Of a DNA stretch of 50,971 nucleotides, positions 14,221 through 40,071 are shown in pieces. Within the stretch, counting starts at the first letter, position 1, and every line of letters starts with the position of its first letter. This stretch comes from Escherichia phage herni. Under the pieces are notes generated by a model. That model did no database searches. It was not told the DNA's origin and saw only the letters and a program-made list of their open reading frames with translations. Location of the stretch: sequence record NC_049823.1; one strand, given 5' to 3'. Made by a program: the position numbers and the translations under genes.

Positions 14221-14925
14221 TGCGTTTGCTTCAAAGACGGCGCGAGCAAAACCGCGCGGTGTGAGGGAGCGGATCATCTTTGTGCGAGACGATTTTCCGC
14301 CAGTTTTGGCCCAACCAGGATTATCCTTGTCGCCATCTTTAGGAATGATTGTTGCGCGCGGAGGAATAACAAATCCGTTTCCAGTCCAAAGGCATGTTTT
14401 CTTAAAGTACCGATCCCGTGCCGGAATAATATCAGGAAAGTCGGGATGTTTATCATCTTCCGGCAGATAGCCAGCATAATCGCACGGATGGAACGTATAA
14501 TCAGGCTTGCGCCATAGCGTTGACAGCTTGCCTACAGGATTCTCTATCATGTACGGAACACCGAAATAATCAGCAATTTGCGCCGCTATTTTGCAAGTGT
14601 CGGCGGCTTCATCCTGGAACGATGGATTCTCAATGCGTTTTTTAGCCCAATGGCGAGATCCGCTATTTGCAAGGTCAGTGCATGGAGGGAACGCCATAAT
14701 AAAATCAGGCTTACCCCAATTTTCAAGTTTTGCGGTATATTTGAATAGATCATCAATCCACGCGTTAACGTAAAAGATATTGTCATGGATTATGCGCACT
14801 GAGTGGTAATCACCGTGATCAGCATCATCGTAATTAAAGCAAATGCATTTATATCCAGCATCAGCCCAATCTTTAACGGCTTTACCAGATCCATCAAACA
14901 AAGAGAAAATTAAACCCTTATACAT
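14215..14925 (-). CDS. putative DNA cytosine-5 methyltransferase
   Basis: Motif I-like FSLFDGSG, motif IV-like FPPCTDLANSG (PC dipeptide), motif VI-like IENPVG; GAGGTGA Shine-Dalgarno. Confidence 0.55.
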   Translation of the reverse strand: MYKGLIFSLFDGSGKAVKDWADAGYKCICFNYDDADHGDYHSVRIIHDNIFYVNAWIDDLFKYTAKLENWGKPDFIMAFPPCTDLANSGSRHWAKKRIENPSFQDEAADTCKIAAQIADYFGVPYMIENPVGKLSTLWRKPDYTFHPCDYAGYLPEDDKHPDFPDIIPARDRYFKKTCLWTGNGFVIPPRATIIPKDGDKDNPGWAKTGGKSSRTKMIRSLTPRGFARAVFEANAK

Positions 14926-14934
14926 TTCATCACC

Positions 14935-15159
14935 TCAAAACGGAAAGCATCGCGGACAGTTAGGATCAAAATTGCAGCCGCAATCATTAACAATCATCGT
15001 TGGATCTGCAAATGCAGCACCGCATTCATGTTCCATATCCATTTCACCCAACGCATCATCAAGTGTCCTGATCTTATATGCAACTTCAAGAGCAGCCTCT
15101 TTATTCAGCCCAGCATCTTCCGCTTTTTGCAGTCGCTCAAAAAATCCGTCCTGGCTCAT
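14935..15159 (-). CDS. small Cys-rich hypothetical protein (possible zinc binding)
   Basis: ORF track; C-terminal CGCNFDPNCPRC cluster. Confidence 0.45.
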   Translation of the reverse strand: MSQDGFFERLQKAEDAGLNKEAALEVAYKIRTLDDALGEMDMEHECGAAFADPTMIVNDCGCNFDPNCPRCFPF

Positions 15160-15269
15160 TTCATAAGCTCCTTGATAACAATCAGAATAGTAGCAATAAC
15201 AGCAGTGACAACTAAAAGACCAGCAAGGCTCATCATCACACCAAATAAAATATCAAGAAATTTCGTCAT
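15156..15269 (-). CDS. possible 37-aa single-pass membrane protein
   Basis: MTKFLDILFGVMMSLAGLLVVTAVIATILIVIKELMK; AGGTGA Shine-Dalgarno; stop overlaps the next start (ATGA). Confidence 0.35.
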   Translation of the reverse strand: MTKFLDILFGVMMSLAGLLVVTAVIATILIVIKELMK

Positions 15270-35968: not shown

Positions 35969-36631
35969 ATGCATTTACCAAATGGATCGCAAATTTTCGT
36001 TGAGAGCAATCGCGGAAGCGCTATTGAGGCAACGGCAGTATCAAACGCTAAAGATCCTGTATTCACCGTTGCATCTGGCGGAACTGCGTACAAGAAAGGT
36101 GATTATGTTATCATCACTGCGTCTTCTTGGGGTAAGCTGATTGATCGTGTTATGCGTGTAAAGACTAACGGTGAAGAAACAAGCGTAACTCTTGAGGGTG
36201 TTGATACTACCGATCAGAACGTGTTCCCGACTGGCGGCACTGCATCTTTTGCTAAGATTGATGCATGGACAGAGATCCCTTGCGTTCAGGATTTGTCGCA
36301 GGACGGCGGCGAACAGCAATACTATACTTATCAGTGTTTGGCAGACGATCAGGAACAGCAGTTACCTACATATAAGAGCGCTGTTTCTCTTACTTACACT
36401 TTTGCGCACGAATACGATAACGCGATCTATCCGCTATTGCGTGCAGCAGACGAATCCGGCGAAGTGACAGCGCTTCGCATGTATGTACCGAAAGCGAAAG
36501 AGATGCGTTGCTGGGCTGGTGTCCTTTCGTTTAACGAAATCCCACAGACCACAGTTAACGAAATGGAAACTGTTTCCCTGTCTGTATCCCTGAAAGGTCG
36601 ATTCACCTTCCTACCTTCTCAAGTAGCATAA
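35969..36631 (+). CDS. major tail protein
   Basis: 220 aa immediately upstream of the chaperone and tape measure genes; strong terminator downstream. Confidence 0.6.
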   Translation: MHLPNGSQIFVESNRGSAIEATAVSNAKDPVFTVASGGTAYKKGDYVIITASSWGKLIDRVMRVKTNGEETSVTLEGVDTTDQNVFPTGGTASFAKIDAWTEIPCVQDLSQDGGEQQYYTYQCLADDQEQQLPTYKSAVSLTYTFAHEYDNAIYPLLRAADESGEVTALRMYVPKAKEMRCWAGVLSFNEIPQTTVNEMETVSLSVSLKGRFTFLPSQVA

Positions 36632-36636
36632 TAACA

Positions 36637-36660
36637 AGGGGCGTTGCGCCCCTTTTTTTG
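36637..36660 (+). terminator. rho-independent terminator
   Basis: GGGGCG-tt-GCGCCCC followed by TTTTTTTGTT. Confidence 0.65.
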
Positions 36661-36698
36661 TTACTGTACAATCATGCTACACGATTCATAATCAATTC

Positions 36699-36717
36699 TT
36701 TTAACAAAAAGTGCTAT
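36699..36717 (-). promoter_or_regulatory. conserved intergenic motif in inverted orientation, directly upstream of the tail chaperone gene
   Basis: TTTTAACAAAAAGTGCTAT on the plus strand, ending 13 nt before the ATG. Confidence 0.35.
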
Positions 36718-36730
36718 CAAGGAGAAAGAA

Positions 36731-37048
36731 ATGTCAAAAATGAAATTGACGATTGGGCCGCTTCCTGACTTTAAATTACCAGTGAAATTTGCAATGCCTA
36801 ACGGAGAAGATCAAACAATTATCTTCACAGTTCGCCACCGCAAAACAAGTGAGATTCACGATCGCTACACTTCCGACACTCCGATGAGCGATGTTGAAAT
36901 GATCACCTTCCTTGCTTCCGGTTGGAATCTTGATGATGAATTTAACGAAGAAAATATTAAACAGCTTCTTGATTACTACCCAGCAACAGCAATCGGATTA
37001 ACTAGCGCATACATGAAAGCGCTTGCGGGGCAGCGAGTAAAAAACTAA
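36731..37048 (+). CDS. tail assembly chaperone (lambda G-like, zero-frame product)
   Basis: 105 aa between the major tail and tape measure genes; ends at a slippery heptamer. Confidence 0.65.
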   Translation: MSKMKLTIGPLPDFKLPVKFAMPNGEDQTIIFTVRHRKTSEIHDRYTSDTPMSDVEMITFLASGWNLDDEFNEENIKQLLDYYPATAIGLTSAYMKALAGQRVKN

Positions 37049-37082
37049 AAAGGGCGGTTTACCTGTTTTATCAGAAACCGCC
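37039..37082 (+). other. -1 programmed ribosomal frameshift site: heptamer A AAA AAC, 7-nt spacer, 8-bp stem hairpin
   Basis: Heptamer at 37039-37045 in the zero frame immediately before the TAA stop; hairpin GGCGGTTT-n14-AAACCGCC at 37053-37082. Confidence 0.6.
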
Positions 37083-37359
37083 GACAGATGCAGAGCTTGA
37101 GGCTGTTGGCCTTACAAGGGCAGACTATGAAGGAGAAGATCCGCCAGAGGTTATATTTGATGAAAGCATGATGCAATCATGGGATATATTTTGCGCAATG
37201 CAAACACAATGGAGATGTTCAGGCGGTGGCGCTTACGGATTTGATTATAATGTCTTGCCTATGCTTTTTGAGATTTACAAGGTTGAGGATCGCGAGATGG
37301 CGCTAAACGACTTGCGAATCATGGAGCAAAAAGCACTTGAAATGATGCATTCAAAATAA
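37042..37359 (+). CDS. -1 frame extension of the tail assembly chaperone (lambda GT-like fusion C-terminus)
   Basis: The -1 frame is open from 37006 to 37359 with no independent Shine-Dalgarno start; position matches the G/GT arrangement. Confidence 0.55.
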   Translation, partial: KLKRAVYLFYQKPPTDAELEAVGLTRADYEGEDPPEVIFDESMMQSWDIFCAMQTQWRCSGGGAYGFDYNVLPMLFEIYKVEDREMALNDLRIMEQKALEMMHSK

Positions 37360-37381
37360 GCGCCTGCGGGCGCTTTTTTAT
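37359..37381 (+). terminator. rho-independent terminator
   Basis: AGCGCC-tgcg-GGCGCT followed by TTTTTTATT. Confidence 0.6.
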
Positions 37382-37398
37382 TACCTGGAGGATTAATA

Positions 37399-40071
37399 AT
37401 GTCAGAACAATACGCAGGATTGACGCTTGGGGTTGATGTATCTCAACTCAACAATGCTGTAAAATCTTTGCAGCAATTCAAAAAGGCAAACGACGACGCA
37501 AAGGGGAGCGTTGAGAGCTTTGTTGATTCAGAGGTTGTTGCAAGGCAAAGAGCCAAACAATTGGCTGAGGAATTGGCGAAACAGAAACAGGAATTTAAAG
37601 CAATTCAGTCGGCAATAGATCCGACAGCAAGCAAAATGGATAAGTTGCGCCAGGCAGCAACACAGCTTGATGCGCTTTGGAAAAAAGGAATTGTGCCGGA
37701 TGATACATTCTTTGAGTTAGGATCAATTCTTGAGACGCAGCAAAACAAACTGATCGCAACTAAAAAGGCGCTAACTGAAGAAGGTCGCGCGGCGCTTGAG
37801 GAAGCAAAAAACAAGGCAAGGGCAGAGGCTGAGGCAAGAAAGTTCATTGCGGCATTGCAGGCGCAAGCTGACGCAGCGGAAAAAACAAAATCAGAGCTTG
37901 TCGAAATGAGAGCCGCACAACTTGGAGTCAGTGCAGAAGCTGCGCCATTTATTGCAAAAATGAAGGAGCAGGAAAAACAAGCCTCAAAACTTGGCGTTTC
38001 TATGGGGCAGTACAAGCAAGCAATGGCGCAATTGCCAATGCAGATCACTGACGTTGTTACTTCTCTTGCTTCAGGTATGCCAGTATGGATGATCGCAATC
38101 CAGCAAGGGGGGCAAATCAAGGACTCATTCGGCGGTGTTGCTAATACGTTTAAAGCGCTAATGACATTTGTCACGCCTTTAAGTGTAGGAATGACGGCGC
38201 TGACTGGTGCTCTTGGTTATGCTGCATATAATGCATACAAAGCAAATGCACAATTGAAGGAGATCACAAAAACCGTTCAGGAGGCAACAGGTCTTTCAGG
38301 TGAGTTTGCAGAGCGGATCGCAACTGGAATCCAGGCGCTATCTGACAAGACAGGTGAGAGCGCCGATAATCTGGCAAAGGCATACATAAGCACTAAGGAC
38401 GGAGCAAACGAGGCCATACAAAAACTCGTCGATGTTGGGTTTACCTATGACGAAGCAAAGGCAAAAGTAAACGAATACAAAAACGCATCAAGTTTTGTAA
38501 GTCTTAACAATGAAATTGCTGATCACAAAAACAAAGTTCTTGAGCTTGGCGATTCATGGTATGCGGTCTTAAAAGCAAAACGTGATTATGCTTCACCGTC
38601 AGGCGGGCTGTTGGGGAAAGAGCTTGGTTATGTGAATCCAATGCTGCAATTTGCGAAGAACACCTATGAGGATATAGGAAAGATCGTAAAAGATGCGAAT
38701 AAGGATATGGCGGAACGAGCAGCACGCATCGACAGAGAAAACCTTTCCTTAAACAGAGTTCGAGCGGCGCAAGAGGCTTTAAACAAAGCCATAGAGGATC
38801 AGAAGAACGTAGCAAGGACAGCAGACGAAGAGTTGAAAAAACGAGCGGCTGAGAACGTGGAGTTCAGGCGAAAAGAGCTTGAAGAGGCGAAGAAGGCGCA
38901 GCAGCAAAAGGAGAAAGTTGGTGGAGTTGTAAAAGCACCAACAGAGCAGCTTGATAAGGAACTATATGTTCTCAAGGCGCAACTTGAAACGCTGAAAGAG
39001 CACAGAACTGTAAATGATGTTATTTCACGCCAGAGGCAATCTTTGTGGAGCATTGAAAAGCAGATCCAGATCCTGGAGGAAGCGCAAAGCAAACGTAAGC
39101 TGACAAAAGCGGAACAGGCGTTACTAAACGAGCAAAAAGCAGTTATTGCTATGGCAAAAGAAAAGGCCGAGATAGGCGATCAGATTGTTTTGCAACAGAG
39201 AAAGAATAAGCAATACCAGGACGGGCTTAAATTCATTCAGCAAACATCAGATGCTATTGACGCTATGAACTTGCGACAGTCTGGAGCTACAGATCTGCAA
39301 ATCCAGCGAGAGCTTGAGTTGAAGAAGTTGCGAACTGATTATGTTGCTGGTGGCGGTAGTATCGACGATGAAATTTATCAGCAGATGGAAGCAAAGCTGA
39401 AAGAGTATTACGCCACTGAGGATCAGCTTCGAAATAACTGGATTGCAGGAGCAAAAAACGCTTGGGAGGTTTACGGACAAGATGCAATGGATATGTACGG
39501 CAACGTGCAAGATATTGCAAGCGAGGCGCTCAATGGTCTAACCAATCAAATGGCTACATTCCTTGCAACCGGTAAGGCAAACTTTAAGAGCTTCGCAACG
39601 TCAATCATCCAAATGATTATTCAGATGATCACAAAGATGGTTATCTTTAATGCCATATCTGGTGCGATTGGAGGTGACACTTGGACGATTGGAAGCCTTC
39701 TTAAAAATGTTGGATTTGCAACAGGTGGATACACTGGCGACGGCGGGAAGTATGAGCCAGCAGGTGTTGTCCATAAAGGCGAGTTTGTCATGACGAAGGA
39801 GGCCACGAAACGGATCGGAGTTGGAAATCTTTACAAAATGATGCGCGGTTATGCAAATGGCGGCGTTGTTGGCGGCACTTCATACACTGGCGGCGGAGTT
39901 TCATCTGGAGCAACAAATCTTAATATTGGCGGGATCAGCGTTGATATTAACAACGGAAGCGATCCGAAAGGGTTGGAGACTGGCGTAAAAATGATTTTCA
40001 CTGATATGATTAAGCGTTCCTGTACGCAGGGTGGGGAAGTTTACGAATTTGTTATGTCTAAGCGGGGGTGA
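37399..40071 (+). CDS. tail tape measure protein
   Basis: 890 aa, long Ala/Lys/Glu/Gln-rich coiled-coil, hydrophobic segments, Gly-rich C-terminus; position after the chaperone. Confidence 0.85.

What the first reader, a model, noticed from the sequence alone, without database searches (positions are those of the whole stretch)
37039..37082. Canonical -1 frameshift cassette in the tail assembly chaperone
The zero-frame gene (36731-37048) ends ...gtA AAA AAC TAA, so the classical X XXY YYZ heptamer A AAA AAC sits immediately before the stop. Seven nucleotides downstream is an 8-bp stem hairpin GGCGGTTT-n14-AAACCGCC, and the -1 frame is open to 37359. This matches the conserved G/GT arrangement of lambda-like tail modules and predicts a fusion of about 209 aa.
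Basis: partly seen in the sequence, partly recalled or inferred. Interest (0 to 1): 0.55.

Follow-up and report, generated by a model that had tools for sequence, protein, structure and literature searches.

The report
Phage tail chaperone -1 frameshift site

Summary
ORF 36731-37048 ends gtA AAA AAC TAA. An 8-bp stem (11 bp as folded) lies 7 nt downstream. The -1 frame is open to 37359, giving a 209-aa fusion.

The window is a Hanrivervirus (Drexlerviridae, T1-like), 97.9% identical to phage damhaus. The ORF is Pfam Phage_TAC_4, and the -1 extension is DUF1799. They sit between the tail tube gene and the tape measure gene.

The 40 codons between the G stop and the first ATG evolve as coding sequence, and that ATG has no Shine-Dalgarno. 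Of 81 distinct homologous contexts (G identity down to 26%), 78 keep an in-frame X_XXY_YYZ heptamer: AAAAAAC, GGGAAAC or AAAGGGT. In 74 of them the heptamer abuts the stop.

The hairpin is far more stable than synonymous recodings. It is confined to some lineages and shows no covariation, so it is at most an auxiliary stimulator.

The frameshift is already annotated in phage Sazh and described in print for the T1-like phages Stevie and Skenny. The nearest GenBank records annotate the T part as a separate 63-aa ORF, which is an annotation gap. Verdict: correct, ordinary, low interest.

The parts
36719..36724 (+). Shine-Dalgarno AAGGAG of the G gene
   Evidence: Read directly from the sequence. 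The duplex with the anti-SD is -8.5 kcal/mol, in the range of the other structural gene starts.
36731..37048 (+). G: zero-frame tail assembly (tape measure) chaperone, 105 aa, 12.0 kDa
   Evidence: ORF listed. Pfam Phage_TAC_4 covers residues 1-105 at E = 2.8e-30, and phrog_569 and phrog_17368 match. The homologue is annotated as tape measure chaperone in related phages.
37039..37045 (+). Slippery heptamer A_AAA_AAC, in frame as X_XXY_YYZ
   Evidence: The pattern is conserved in 78 of 81 distinct homologous contexts: AAAAAAC 72, GGGAAAC 5, AAAGGGT 1. A_AAA_AAC is the proven IS1 -1 frameshift site in E. coli (PMC4066793).
37046..37048 (+). Zero-frame stop TAA, directly abutting the heptamer
   Evidence: The stop (TAA or TGA) abuts the heptamer in 74 of the 78 contexts that have a heptamer. 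In the other 4 it is TAG one codon later.
37053..37082 (+). Downstream hairpin: outer stem 37053-60 with 37075-82 (8 bp), inner stem 37063-65 with 37072-74 (3 bp), 6-nt loop, 7-nt spacer from the heptamer. Possible auxiliary stimulator.
   Evidence: Fold. It folds at -15.1 kcal/mol against a mean of -3.3 for synonymous recodings, with 0.14% as stable. The same hairpin is found in 15 of 24 distinct related sequences and is absent in the rest. There is no significant covariation.
37045..37359 (+). T: -1 frame extension of 104 codons plus stop, with no start codon before 37168. It is translated only as the C-terminal half of GT; join(36731..37045,37045..37359) gives 209 aa, 24.1 kDa.
   Evidence: Pfam DUF1799 covers fusion residues 127-206, and phrog_680 covers T residues 9-103. 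Pairwise differences at codon positions 1/2/3 are 0.20/0.13/0.51 in 37048-37167, matching 0.23/0.13/0.47 downstream. The ATG at 37168 has no SD, with a duplex of only -2.7 kcal/mol.
36636..36654 (+). Terminator-like hairpin plus T-run between the tail tube gene and G
   Evidence: The same position is annotated as a terminator in T1 and Sazh.
37358..37375 (+). Terminator-like hairpin plus T-run between T and the tape measure gene
   Evidence: The same position is annotated as a terminator in T1 and Sazh.
35969..36631 (+). Tail tube (major tail) protein gene, presumed partner of the T domain
   Evidence: Pfam Phage_tail_3, E = 1.7e-64.
37399..40071 (+). Tape measure protein gene, presumed partner of the G domain
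   Evidence: Pfam TMP_2 (E = 6.7e-35) and Tape_meas_lam_C (E = 6.5e-22).

Best explanation
The site is a programmed -1 ribosomal frameshift in the tail assembly chaperone gene of a T1-like siphophage.

Most ribosomes translate 36731-37045 and terminate at UAA 37046-48, giving G (105 aa). A small fraction slip back one nucleotide on A_AAA_AAC: tRNA-Lys moves from AAA to AAA and tRNA-Asn from AAC to AAA. They then read CUA (Leu) at 37045-47 and continue to 37359, giving GT (209 aa).

By analogy with lambda G/GT, many G molecules and a few GT molecules coat the tape measure protein. The T domain recruits the tail tube protein, and neither chaperone ends up in the virion.

A_AAA_AAC is an intrinsically weak heptamer in E. 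coli, which fits a low GT:G ratio. The adjacent stop codon and, in this lineage, the hairpin 7 nt downstream probably tune the efficiency.

Shown here: the sequence anatomy, the family assignment, the coding signature of the start-less -1 segment, and conservation of the slippery pattern.

Inferred: that the slip happens, its efficiency, the roles of the stop and the hairpin, and the protein partners.
For: 1. Anatomy was verified.
2. Synteny is tail tube protein, G, T, tape measure protein, and G is Phage_TAC_4 with T as DUF1799. PHROG 17368 matches the fusion end to end at E = 1e-101.
3. The -1 frame has no ATG, GTG or TTG from 37006 to 37168. Even so, 37048-37167 shows coding-type substitution (0.20/0.13/0.51 at codon positions 1/2/3), the same as the rest of T. 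The DUF1799 and phrog_680 models also start upstream of that ATG.
4. The ATG at 37168 has an SD duplex of -2.7 kcal/mol, against -5.5 to -10 for the ATG starts of the neighbouring genes tested. In the most distant viral relative (L043) the aligned position has no Met at all.
5. In 81 distinct contexts from Drexlerviridae and from prophages of Enterobacteriaceae, Photorhabdus, Gilliamella and Burkholderiales, T is always in the -1 frame and 98-114 aa long. 78 contexts carry an in-frame X_XXY_YYZ heptamer at the end of G. The heptamer changes its letters (AAAAAAC, GGGAAAC, AAAGGGT) and its encoded residues while keeping the pattern.
6. A_AAA_AAC is a proven -1 site in E. coli IS1 (PMC4066793).
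7. The homologous site in Citrobacter phage Sazh is deposited as 'Tape measure chaperone frameshift product'. T1-like phages Stevie and Skenny are described in print as having this conserved frameshift (PMC4319613, PMC6763657).
Against: - No protein-level evidence exists for this phage or, as far as I could find, for any T1-like phage.
- A_AAA_AAC is much less shift-prone than A_AAA_AAG in E. coli, because the AAC-to-AAA re-pairing is non-cognate (PMC5009743, PMC4066793).
- The heptamer lies in a doubly coding stretch, so nucleotide conservation alone is not proof.
- Three homologues lack a heptamer. Two keep an A_AAG tetramer; L064 has neither (a G_GGG tetramer is a possible shift site there).
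- The hairpin shows no covariation and is missing in close relatives.
- A stop codon next to a heptamer lowered frameshifting in one bacterial test system (PMC4373837), so it may restrain the slip, not stimulate it.
Confidence: 0.92

Rival explanations
1. T is a separate small protein (63 aa) that initiates at ATG 37168, as the nearest GenBank records annotate it. The heptamer would then be incidental.
For: JLBYU09, Henu8, PeterMerian, BEK12B, T1 and others deposit the downstream ORF as its own CDS. A Met at this position is conserved in most Drexlerviridae.
Against: - The ATG has no SD: the duplex is -2.7 kcal/mol and the pairing lies about 17 nt upstream.
- The 40 codons upstream have no start codon yet evolve as coding sequence.
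- Pfam DUF1799 and phrog_680 extend upstream of the ATG.
- The annotated 'starts' differ arbitrarily between records.
- L043 has no Met at the aligned position.
Confidence: 0.03
2. The frame change is made by RNA polymerase. Transcriptional slippage on the A6 run (37039-37044) inserts one extra A into a fraction of the mRNAs.
For: The site is a homopolymeric A run, and an inserted A would give the same frame change. Four public records carry A5 in place of A6, which shows that the run length is error-prone at least in sequencing.
Against: From general knowledge, productive slippage in bacteria usually needs runs of about 8-9 A or T, and this run is only 6. Homologues with GGGAAAC, AAAGGGT, AAAGGTC or AAAGCCC have only 3-nt runs but keep the same G/T architecture. 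That fits tRNA re-pairing, not polymerase stuttering.
Confidence: 0.02
3. Termination-reinitiation: ribosomes terminate at UAA 37046 and restart nearby in the -1 frame, producing a free T protein and not a fusion.
For: The stop codon overlaps the first T-frame codons in nearly all homologues, a geometry seen in coupled genes.
Against: The T frame has no AUG, GUG or UUG for 41 codons after the stop. This model also does not explain why an X_XXY_YYZ pattern is preserved through three different heptamers.
Confidence: 0.02
4. A sub-claim only. The frameshift is real, but the hairpin 37053-37082 is not a stimulator. It would be a lineage-specific by-product of codon choice over the conserved peptide RAVYLFYQKPP.
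For: - Both arms lie in conserved codons: RAV(Y) and KPP.
- Covariation is not significant; 55 of 500 shuffles reach the observed score.
- The helix is broken in close relatives L023-25 and L029 (T 89-92% identical) and weakened in BEK12A.
- It is absent in Sd1, phiEB49, AugustePiccard, TR1 and ESP2949-1.
- IS1 uses the same heptamer with no established stimulator (PMC4066793).
Against: - The native segment is more stable than 99.86% of synonymous recodings. The same holds in 15 of 24 distinct relatives.
- The 7-nt spacing is within the usual range.
- In hairpin-bearing sequences the paired third-codon positions vary less than the unpaired ones (0.34 against 0.89 bits, p = 0.013). The one freely varying paired site switches between U-A and U-G. 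This grouping was chosen by pairing, so the test is partly circular.
- Synonymous CCG-to-CCC changes extend the stem in several phages.
Confidence: 0.45

Closest known systems
Tape measure chaperone frameshift of other T1-like phages (Drexlerviridae): Citrobacter phages Sazh (MH729819, CDS join) and Stevie (PMC4319613), Klebsiella phage Skenny (PMC6763657)
   Same: These are homologous genes (Phage_TAC_4 + DUF1799) in the same position. Sazh has the identical A_AAA_AAC TAA signal and the same hairpin.
   Different: Nothing of substance differs. G is 57% identical and T 88% identical to Sazh. The records closest to the window (Hanrivervirus) do not annotate the join.
Phage lambda G/GT (Levin, Hendrix and Casjens 1993; Xu, Hendrix and Duda 2004, 2013, 2014, as summarised in PMC5009743)
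   Same: [quoted passage not shown] The downstream tail genes (M, L, K, I homologues) and the tape measure domains are lambda-type.
   Different: - Lambda uses G_GGA_AAG five codons before the G stop. Here the heptamer is A_AAA_AAC and abuts the stop.
- Lambda G is Phage_TAC_2 and lambda T is Phage_tail_T, with no significant profile similarity to this G or T.
- The proteins here are shorter: 105 and 209 aa here; lambda G alone is 140 aa.
IS1 insA-insB' frameshift in E. coli (Escoubas et al. 1991, cited in PMC4066793)
   Same: It has the same heptamer, A_AAA_AAC, in the same host. It is a proven low-efficiency -1 frameshift that makes a fusion protein, with no established stimulator.
   Different: It is a transposase, not a phage chaperone, and the proteins are unrelated. 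I did not check the IS1 stop-codon position or any downstream structure here.
E. coli dnaX (tau/gamma) frameshift
   Same: It is a -1 slip on an A-rich heptamer involving tRNA-Lys, with a downstream stem-loop.
   Different: dnaX uses the highly efficient A_AAA_AAG together with an upstream SD-like stimulator, shifts about half of the ribosomes, and yields a shorter product (PMC5009743, PMC4066793). Here the heptamer is weak, the product is longer, and only a weak G-rich patch (GGGG 37027-37030, -5.0 kcal/mol) lies upstream.

Membership tests
Phage tail assembly chaperone pair expressed by programmed frameshift (G/GT type, Xu et al. 2004) | The two ORFs lie between the major tail (tube) protein gene and the tape measure protein gene. 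| tested here: met
   Phage_tail_3 is at 35969-36631, G at 36731-37048, T runs to 37359, and the tape measure gene is at 37399-40071.
Phage tail assembly chaperone pair expressed by programmed frameshift (G/GT type, Xu et al. 2004) | The second ORF overlaps the end of the first in another frame and has no start codon or RBS of its own. | tested here: met
   The -1 frame is open over 37006-37359. Its first start codon is at 37168, with an SD duplex of only -2.7 kcal/mol.
Phage tail assembly chaperone pair expressed by programmed frameshift (G/GT type, Xu et al. 2004) | A slippery sequence lies in the overlap, in the correct phase. | tested here: met
   A_AAA_AAC at 37039-37045 is the only X_XXY_YYZ heptamer in the 14-codon overlap.
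Phage tail assembly chaperone pair expressed by programmed frameshift (G/GT type, Xu et al. 2004) | The two-frame arrangement and the slippery site are conserved in relatives. | tested here: met
   All 81 distinct contexts have T in the -1 frame. 78 keep a heptamer, in three different forms.
Phage tail assembly chaperone pair expressed by programmed frameshift (G/GT type, Xu et al. 2004) | The start-less part of the second frame is under protein-coding selection. | tested here: met
   Pairwise differences at codon positions 1/2/3 are 0.20/0.13/0.51 over 37048-37167 in 31 unique sequences.
Phage tail assembly chaperone pair expressed by programmed frameshift (G/GT type, Xu et al. 2004) | A fusion protein is made at a low fixed ratio and is required for tail assembly. 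| not testable with these tools
   This needs a western blot or mass spectrometry, plus genetics.
Pfam Phage_TAC_4 (PF08748, T1 gp40-like) with DUF1799 (PF08809) | Scores above the Pfam gathering thresholds. | tested here: met
   105.5 bits against a cutoff of 21.1, and 46.8 bits against a cutoff of 26.
Lambda G (Phage_TAC_2) and lambda T (Phage_tail_T) sequence families | Detectable sequence or profile homology to lambda G and T. | tested here: not met
   There is no Pfam hit to those families. hhalign probabilities are below 1% even with 48-sequence profiles. Fold-level similarity was not tested.
Canonical stimulated -1 PRF cassette (heptamer + spacer + downstream structure) | The downstream structure is conserved and supported by covariation. 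| tested here: inconclusive
   The hairpin is stable compared with synonymous recodings, and the spacer is 7 nt. Covariation is not significant, however, and the helix is missing in 9 of 24 distinct relatives.

The most novel reading that the evidence does not exclude
Across the whole Phage_TAC_4/DUF1799 family the conserved signal is not 'heptamer plus structure'. It is an intrinsically weak purine-purine-pyrimidine heptamer (X_XXA_AAC) locked directly against the zero-frame stop codon.

This could be a distinct design of -1 recoding. In it, the slip would happen with the stop codon in the A site, and competition with release factors would set the low GT:G ratio. Downstream RNA structure would be an optional, lineage-specific add-on.

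If so, GT:G stoichiometry in these phages would respond to host RF1/RF2 levels.
Probability: 0.3. Interest if true: 0.35.

Novelty: already known. Interest (0 to 1): 0.12.

Why it matters
The main value is for annotation. In nearly all public records closest to this phage, the T part is deposited as a free-standing 56-66 aa 'hypothetical protein' or 'tail length tape measure protein'. The 209-aa GT product is missing. A join(36731..37045,37045..37359) CDS would correct that.

The site is also a clean natural example of the weak A_AAA_AAC heptamer being used in an E. coli phage, with a stop codon conserved directly next to it over deep divergence. That makes it a convenient test bed for how termination and -1 slippage compete.

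Tail assembly chaperones are also reported targets of bacterial Avs17 immune sensors, which bind the N-terminal core shared by both isoforms (PMC13581612).

Tried and rejected
- Rfam scan of 36600-37500 at E <= 1: only sub-threshold sRNA noise and no frameshift element family.
- PDB sequence search with the fusion: no relative; the best hit is E = 0.33 to an unrelated kinase domain.
- Homology to lambda G and T by hhalign, first with a 9-sequence profile and then with 48-sequence profiles: nothing significant. There is only a 14-residue motif resemblance, GLDYNVLP against GLTYTVLS, at probability 0.6%.
- I tried to build a diverse lambda-T profile with the search for related loci. All 80 loci were 99% identical to lambda, so it was useless.
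- Covariation test of the hairpin: not significant.
- Upstream SD-like stimulator as in dnaX: only a GGGG patch 8 nt upstream (-5.0 kcal/mol). It coincides with a conserved Gly codon, so I make no claim.
- Literature: the Xu et al. 2004 paper is not held. There are no hits for Hanrivervirus plus frameshift or for 'bacteriophage T1' plus frameshift plus tape measure.
- Not run: structure prediction, fold search and the large protein database searches. The Pfam and PHROG assignments were already decisive, and the allowed inputs would have required an expensive homology search first.

Full report
**1. The observation**

- ORF 36731-37048 (105 aa) has a strong Shine-Dalgarno, AAGGAG, at 36719-36724, and ends GTA AAA AAC TAA.
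- The in-frame X_XXY_YYZ heptamer A_AAA_AAC occupies 37039-37045 and directly abuts the stop at 37046-37048.
- After a 7-nt spacer, GGCGGTTT (37053-60) pairs with AAACCGCC (37075-82).
- RNAfold adds an inner CUG/CAG stem, giving 11 bp around a 6-nt loop.
- The -1 frame is open from 37006 to the TAA at 37357-37359. The first possible start codon in that frame is the ATG at 37168.
- The fusion is 105 + 104 = 209 aa, 24.1 kDa.

The only error is the junction peptide. A tandem slip gives ...RVKN-LKRAVY..., and a slip of tRNA-Lys alone gives ...RVKK-LKRAVY....

**2. Is it more than chance?**

A heptamer alone is not. ORFs of at least 100 aa in the window hold 54 in-frame X_XXY_YYZ heptamers, against about 64 expected. 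This one is the only heptamer close to a stop that is followed by a long -1 extension: 104 codons, with the runner-up at 50.

The hairpin region gives only z = -1.75 against dinucleotide shuffles. The fairer null keeps the encoded peptide. The hairpin segment folds at -15.1 kcal/mol, against a mean of -3.3 for synonymous recodings, and 0.14% of recodings are as stable. For a 57-nt window the figure is 1.6%.

**3. What the genes are**

The window is a T1-like siphophage of the genus Hanrivervirus (Drexlerviridae, Tempevirinae), 97.9% identical to phage damhaus over this region.

Pfam places Phage_TAC_4 on fusion residues 1-105 (E = 2.8e-30) and DUF1799 on residues 127-206 (E = 3.5e-12). The flanking genes are a Phage_tail_3 tube protein (35969-36631) and a tape measure protein with TMP_2 and Tape_meas_lam_C domains (37399-40071). 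Lambda-type M and L homologues follow. PHROG 17368, a 213-position profile, matches the predicted fusion end to end (E = 1e-101). Full-length fusions are therefore already in phage protein collections.

**4. Evidence that the -1 frame is reached by frameshifting**

- The 40 codons between the G stop and the first ATG (37048-37167) contain no start codon. In 31 unique relatives their pairwise differences at codon positions 1/2/3 are 0.20/0.13/0.51. The rest of T gives 0.23/0.13/0.47.
- The DUF1799 and phrog_680 models begin upstream of that ATG.
- The ATG at 37168 has an SD duplex of -2.7 kcal/mol, against -5.5 to -10 for the ATG starts of neighbouring genes.
- In the most distant viral relative the aligned position is not Met.
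- I collected 81 distinct contexts from annotated phages, IMG/VR contigs and prophages in Enterobacteriaceae, Photorhabdus, Gilliamella, Arsenophonus and Burkholderiales. G identity falls as low as 26%.
- In all of them T is in the -1 frame. In the 48 unique sequences measured, T is 98-114 aa.

The junctions found in those 81 contexts:

| Junction | Contexts |
|---|---|
| AAAAAAC directly followed by TAA or TGA | 68 |
| AAAAAAC one codon before TAG | 4 |
| GGGAAAC followed by TGA | 5 |
| AAAGGGT followed by TAA | 1 |
| No heptamer (two keep the shift-prone A_AAG tetramer; the third, L064, has neither) | 3 |

The letters and the encoded residues change while the X_XXY_YYZ pattern persists. That is the signature expected of two-tRNA slippage. 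It also argues against transcriptional slippage, because the variant heptamers have only 3-nt runs.

**5. The hairpin**

The same helix is present, and significantly stable against its own synonymous recodings, in 15 of 24 distinct sequences. These include T1, Sazh, BrunoManser and most Tempevirinae.

It is broken in close relatives (L023-25 and L029, whose T is 89-92% identical) and weakened in BEK12A. It is absent in Sd1, phiEB49, AugustePiccard, TR1 and ESP2949-1.

Pair counting finds 84% of cells paired but no significant covariation; 55 of 500 shuffles reach the observed score.

In the hairpin-bearing sequences, paired third-codon positions are less variable than unpaired ones (0.34 against 0.89 bits, p = 0.013). 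The one freely varying paired site alternates between U-A and U-G. That group was chosen by pairing, so the test is partly circular.

My reading is that the hairpin is a plausible auxiliary stimulator in this lineage. It is not part of the conserved core signal. I put the chance that it stimulates at about one half.

**6. Mechanism**

A_AAA_AAC is the proven -1 site of IS1 in E. coli, where no stimulator is established (PMC4066793). It is much weaker than A_AAA_AAG, because bacterial ribosomes tolerate the AAC-to-AAA re-pairing poorly (PMC4066793, PMC5009743). A weak site suits a chaperone pair for which lambda needs a G:GT ratio of about 30:1 (PMC5009743).

The conserved adjacent stop is notable. 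In lambda the heptamer G_GGA_AAG lies five codons before the stop. Work with the HIV-1 heptamer in bacteria showed that a stop codon in that position is in the A site when slippage occurs, and that release factor competes with the shift (PMC4373837, citing Horsfield et al. 1995). The stop may therefore limit the yield and not stimulate it. This is inference only.

**7. Comparison with what is known**

The arrangement is the classical G/GT one. The homologous site is already deposited as a 'Tape measure chaperone frameshift product' in Citrobacter phage Sazh, with the identical heptamer, stop and hairpin. T1-like phages Stevie and Skenny are described in print as having the conserved chaperone frameshift (PMC4319613, PMC6763657).

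G and T are not detectably homologous to lambda G (Phage_TAC_2) or T (Phage_tail_T). The pair works like lambda G/GT but belongs to a different sequence family.

The closest records (damhaus, JLBYU09, Henu8, PeterMerian, BEK12B, T1 itself) lack the join and list the T part as a separate small CDS. That is an annotation gap, not a discovery.

**8. Verdict**

The mechanism is a programmed -1 ribosomal frameshift (confidence 0.92). Novelty is 'already known' and interest is low.

The only mildly open point is the family-wide 'weak heptamer locked to a stop codon' design, together with the optional hairpin. Both are easy to test with reporters.

Noticed in passing
Homologues of window 37039-37044: L022 (IMGVR_UViG_2974632794), L042 (IMGVR_UViG_2706796530), L010 (Enterobacter phage N5822, MW032452), L012 (Citrobacter phage HCF1, NC_054897): Four public records carry GTAAAAACTAA, with A5 in place of A6, at the slip site. 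That puts T in the +1 frame and extends G. N5822 and HCF1 also have further frame breaks in G. These are most likely homopolymer sequencing errors. Real run-length heterogeneity was not excluded.
   Followed up: partly
window 37168-37359 and its homologues in damhaus, JLBYU09, Henu8, PeterMerian, BEK12B, T1 (L001-L003, L007-L009): Nearly all nearby GenBank and RefSeq records annotate the T part as an independent 56-66 aa CDS, with start positions that differ from record to record. RefSeq names G 'tail length tape measure protein'. Of the records inspected, only Sazh carries the frameshift join.
   Followed up: yes
L009 (Escherichia phage BEK12B) compared with window 36731-37359: There is a mosaic breakpoint at the slip site. 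BEK12B G is 62-70% identical in DNA to the window (Sazh-like), while T is 96% identical and the tape measure 5' end is 82% identical. The conserved slip and hairpin stretch may act as a recombination joint between exchangeable G and T modules.
   Followed up: partly
window 36636-36654 and 37358-37375: Terminator-like GC hairpins with T-runs bracket the G-T pair, between the tube gene and G and between T and the tape measure gene. T1 and Sazh annotate terminators at the same places. They may set the relative dosage of tube protein, chaperones and tape measure.
   Followed up: partly
Public phage collection hits H46-H48 (MG065675, MG065643, MG065671 and 16 more): Nineteen unannotated records named 'Campylobacter phage', with Campylobacter jejuni given as host, match this enterobacterial T1-like module at about 76% DNA identity over 95-97% of the query. 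Mislabelling or contamination seems likely.
   Followed up: no
window 15139 (+ strand), ORF 14843-15166: An in-frame A_AAA_AAT heptamer lies 6 codons before a stop and has a 47-codon -1 extension. The surrounding long ORFs are on the minus strand, so the + strand ORF is probably spurious.
   Followed up: partly
T residues 63-76 (window 37231-37272) compared with lambda T residues 54-67: There is a short motif resemblance, AYGFDYNVLPMLFE against FSGLTYTVLSLFFS. It is the top hhalign segment with both profiles but is not significant (probability 0.6%). A structure comparison could show whether DUF1799 and Phage_tail_T share a fold.
   Followed up: partly
L014 (phiEB49), L047 (contig in a Fibrobacter MAG) and L064 (Candidatus Nitrotoga contig): These homologues lack a full heptamer. 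They have gcA AAG GTC TAA, gcA AAG CCC TAA and aaG GGG AAA ATC TAG respectively. The first two keep the A_AAG tetramer, which is among the most shift-prone tetramers in E. coli (PMC4066793).
   Followed up: no
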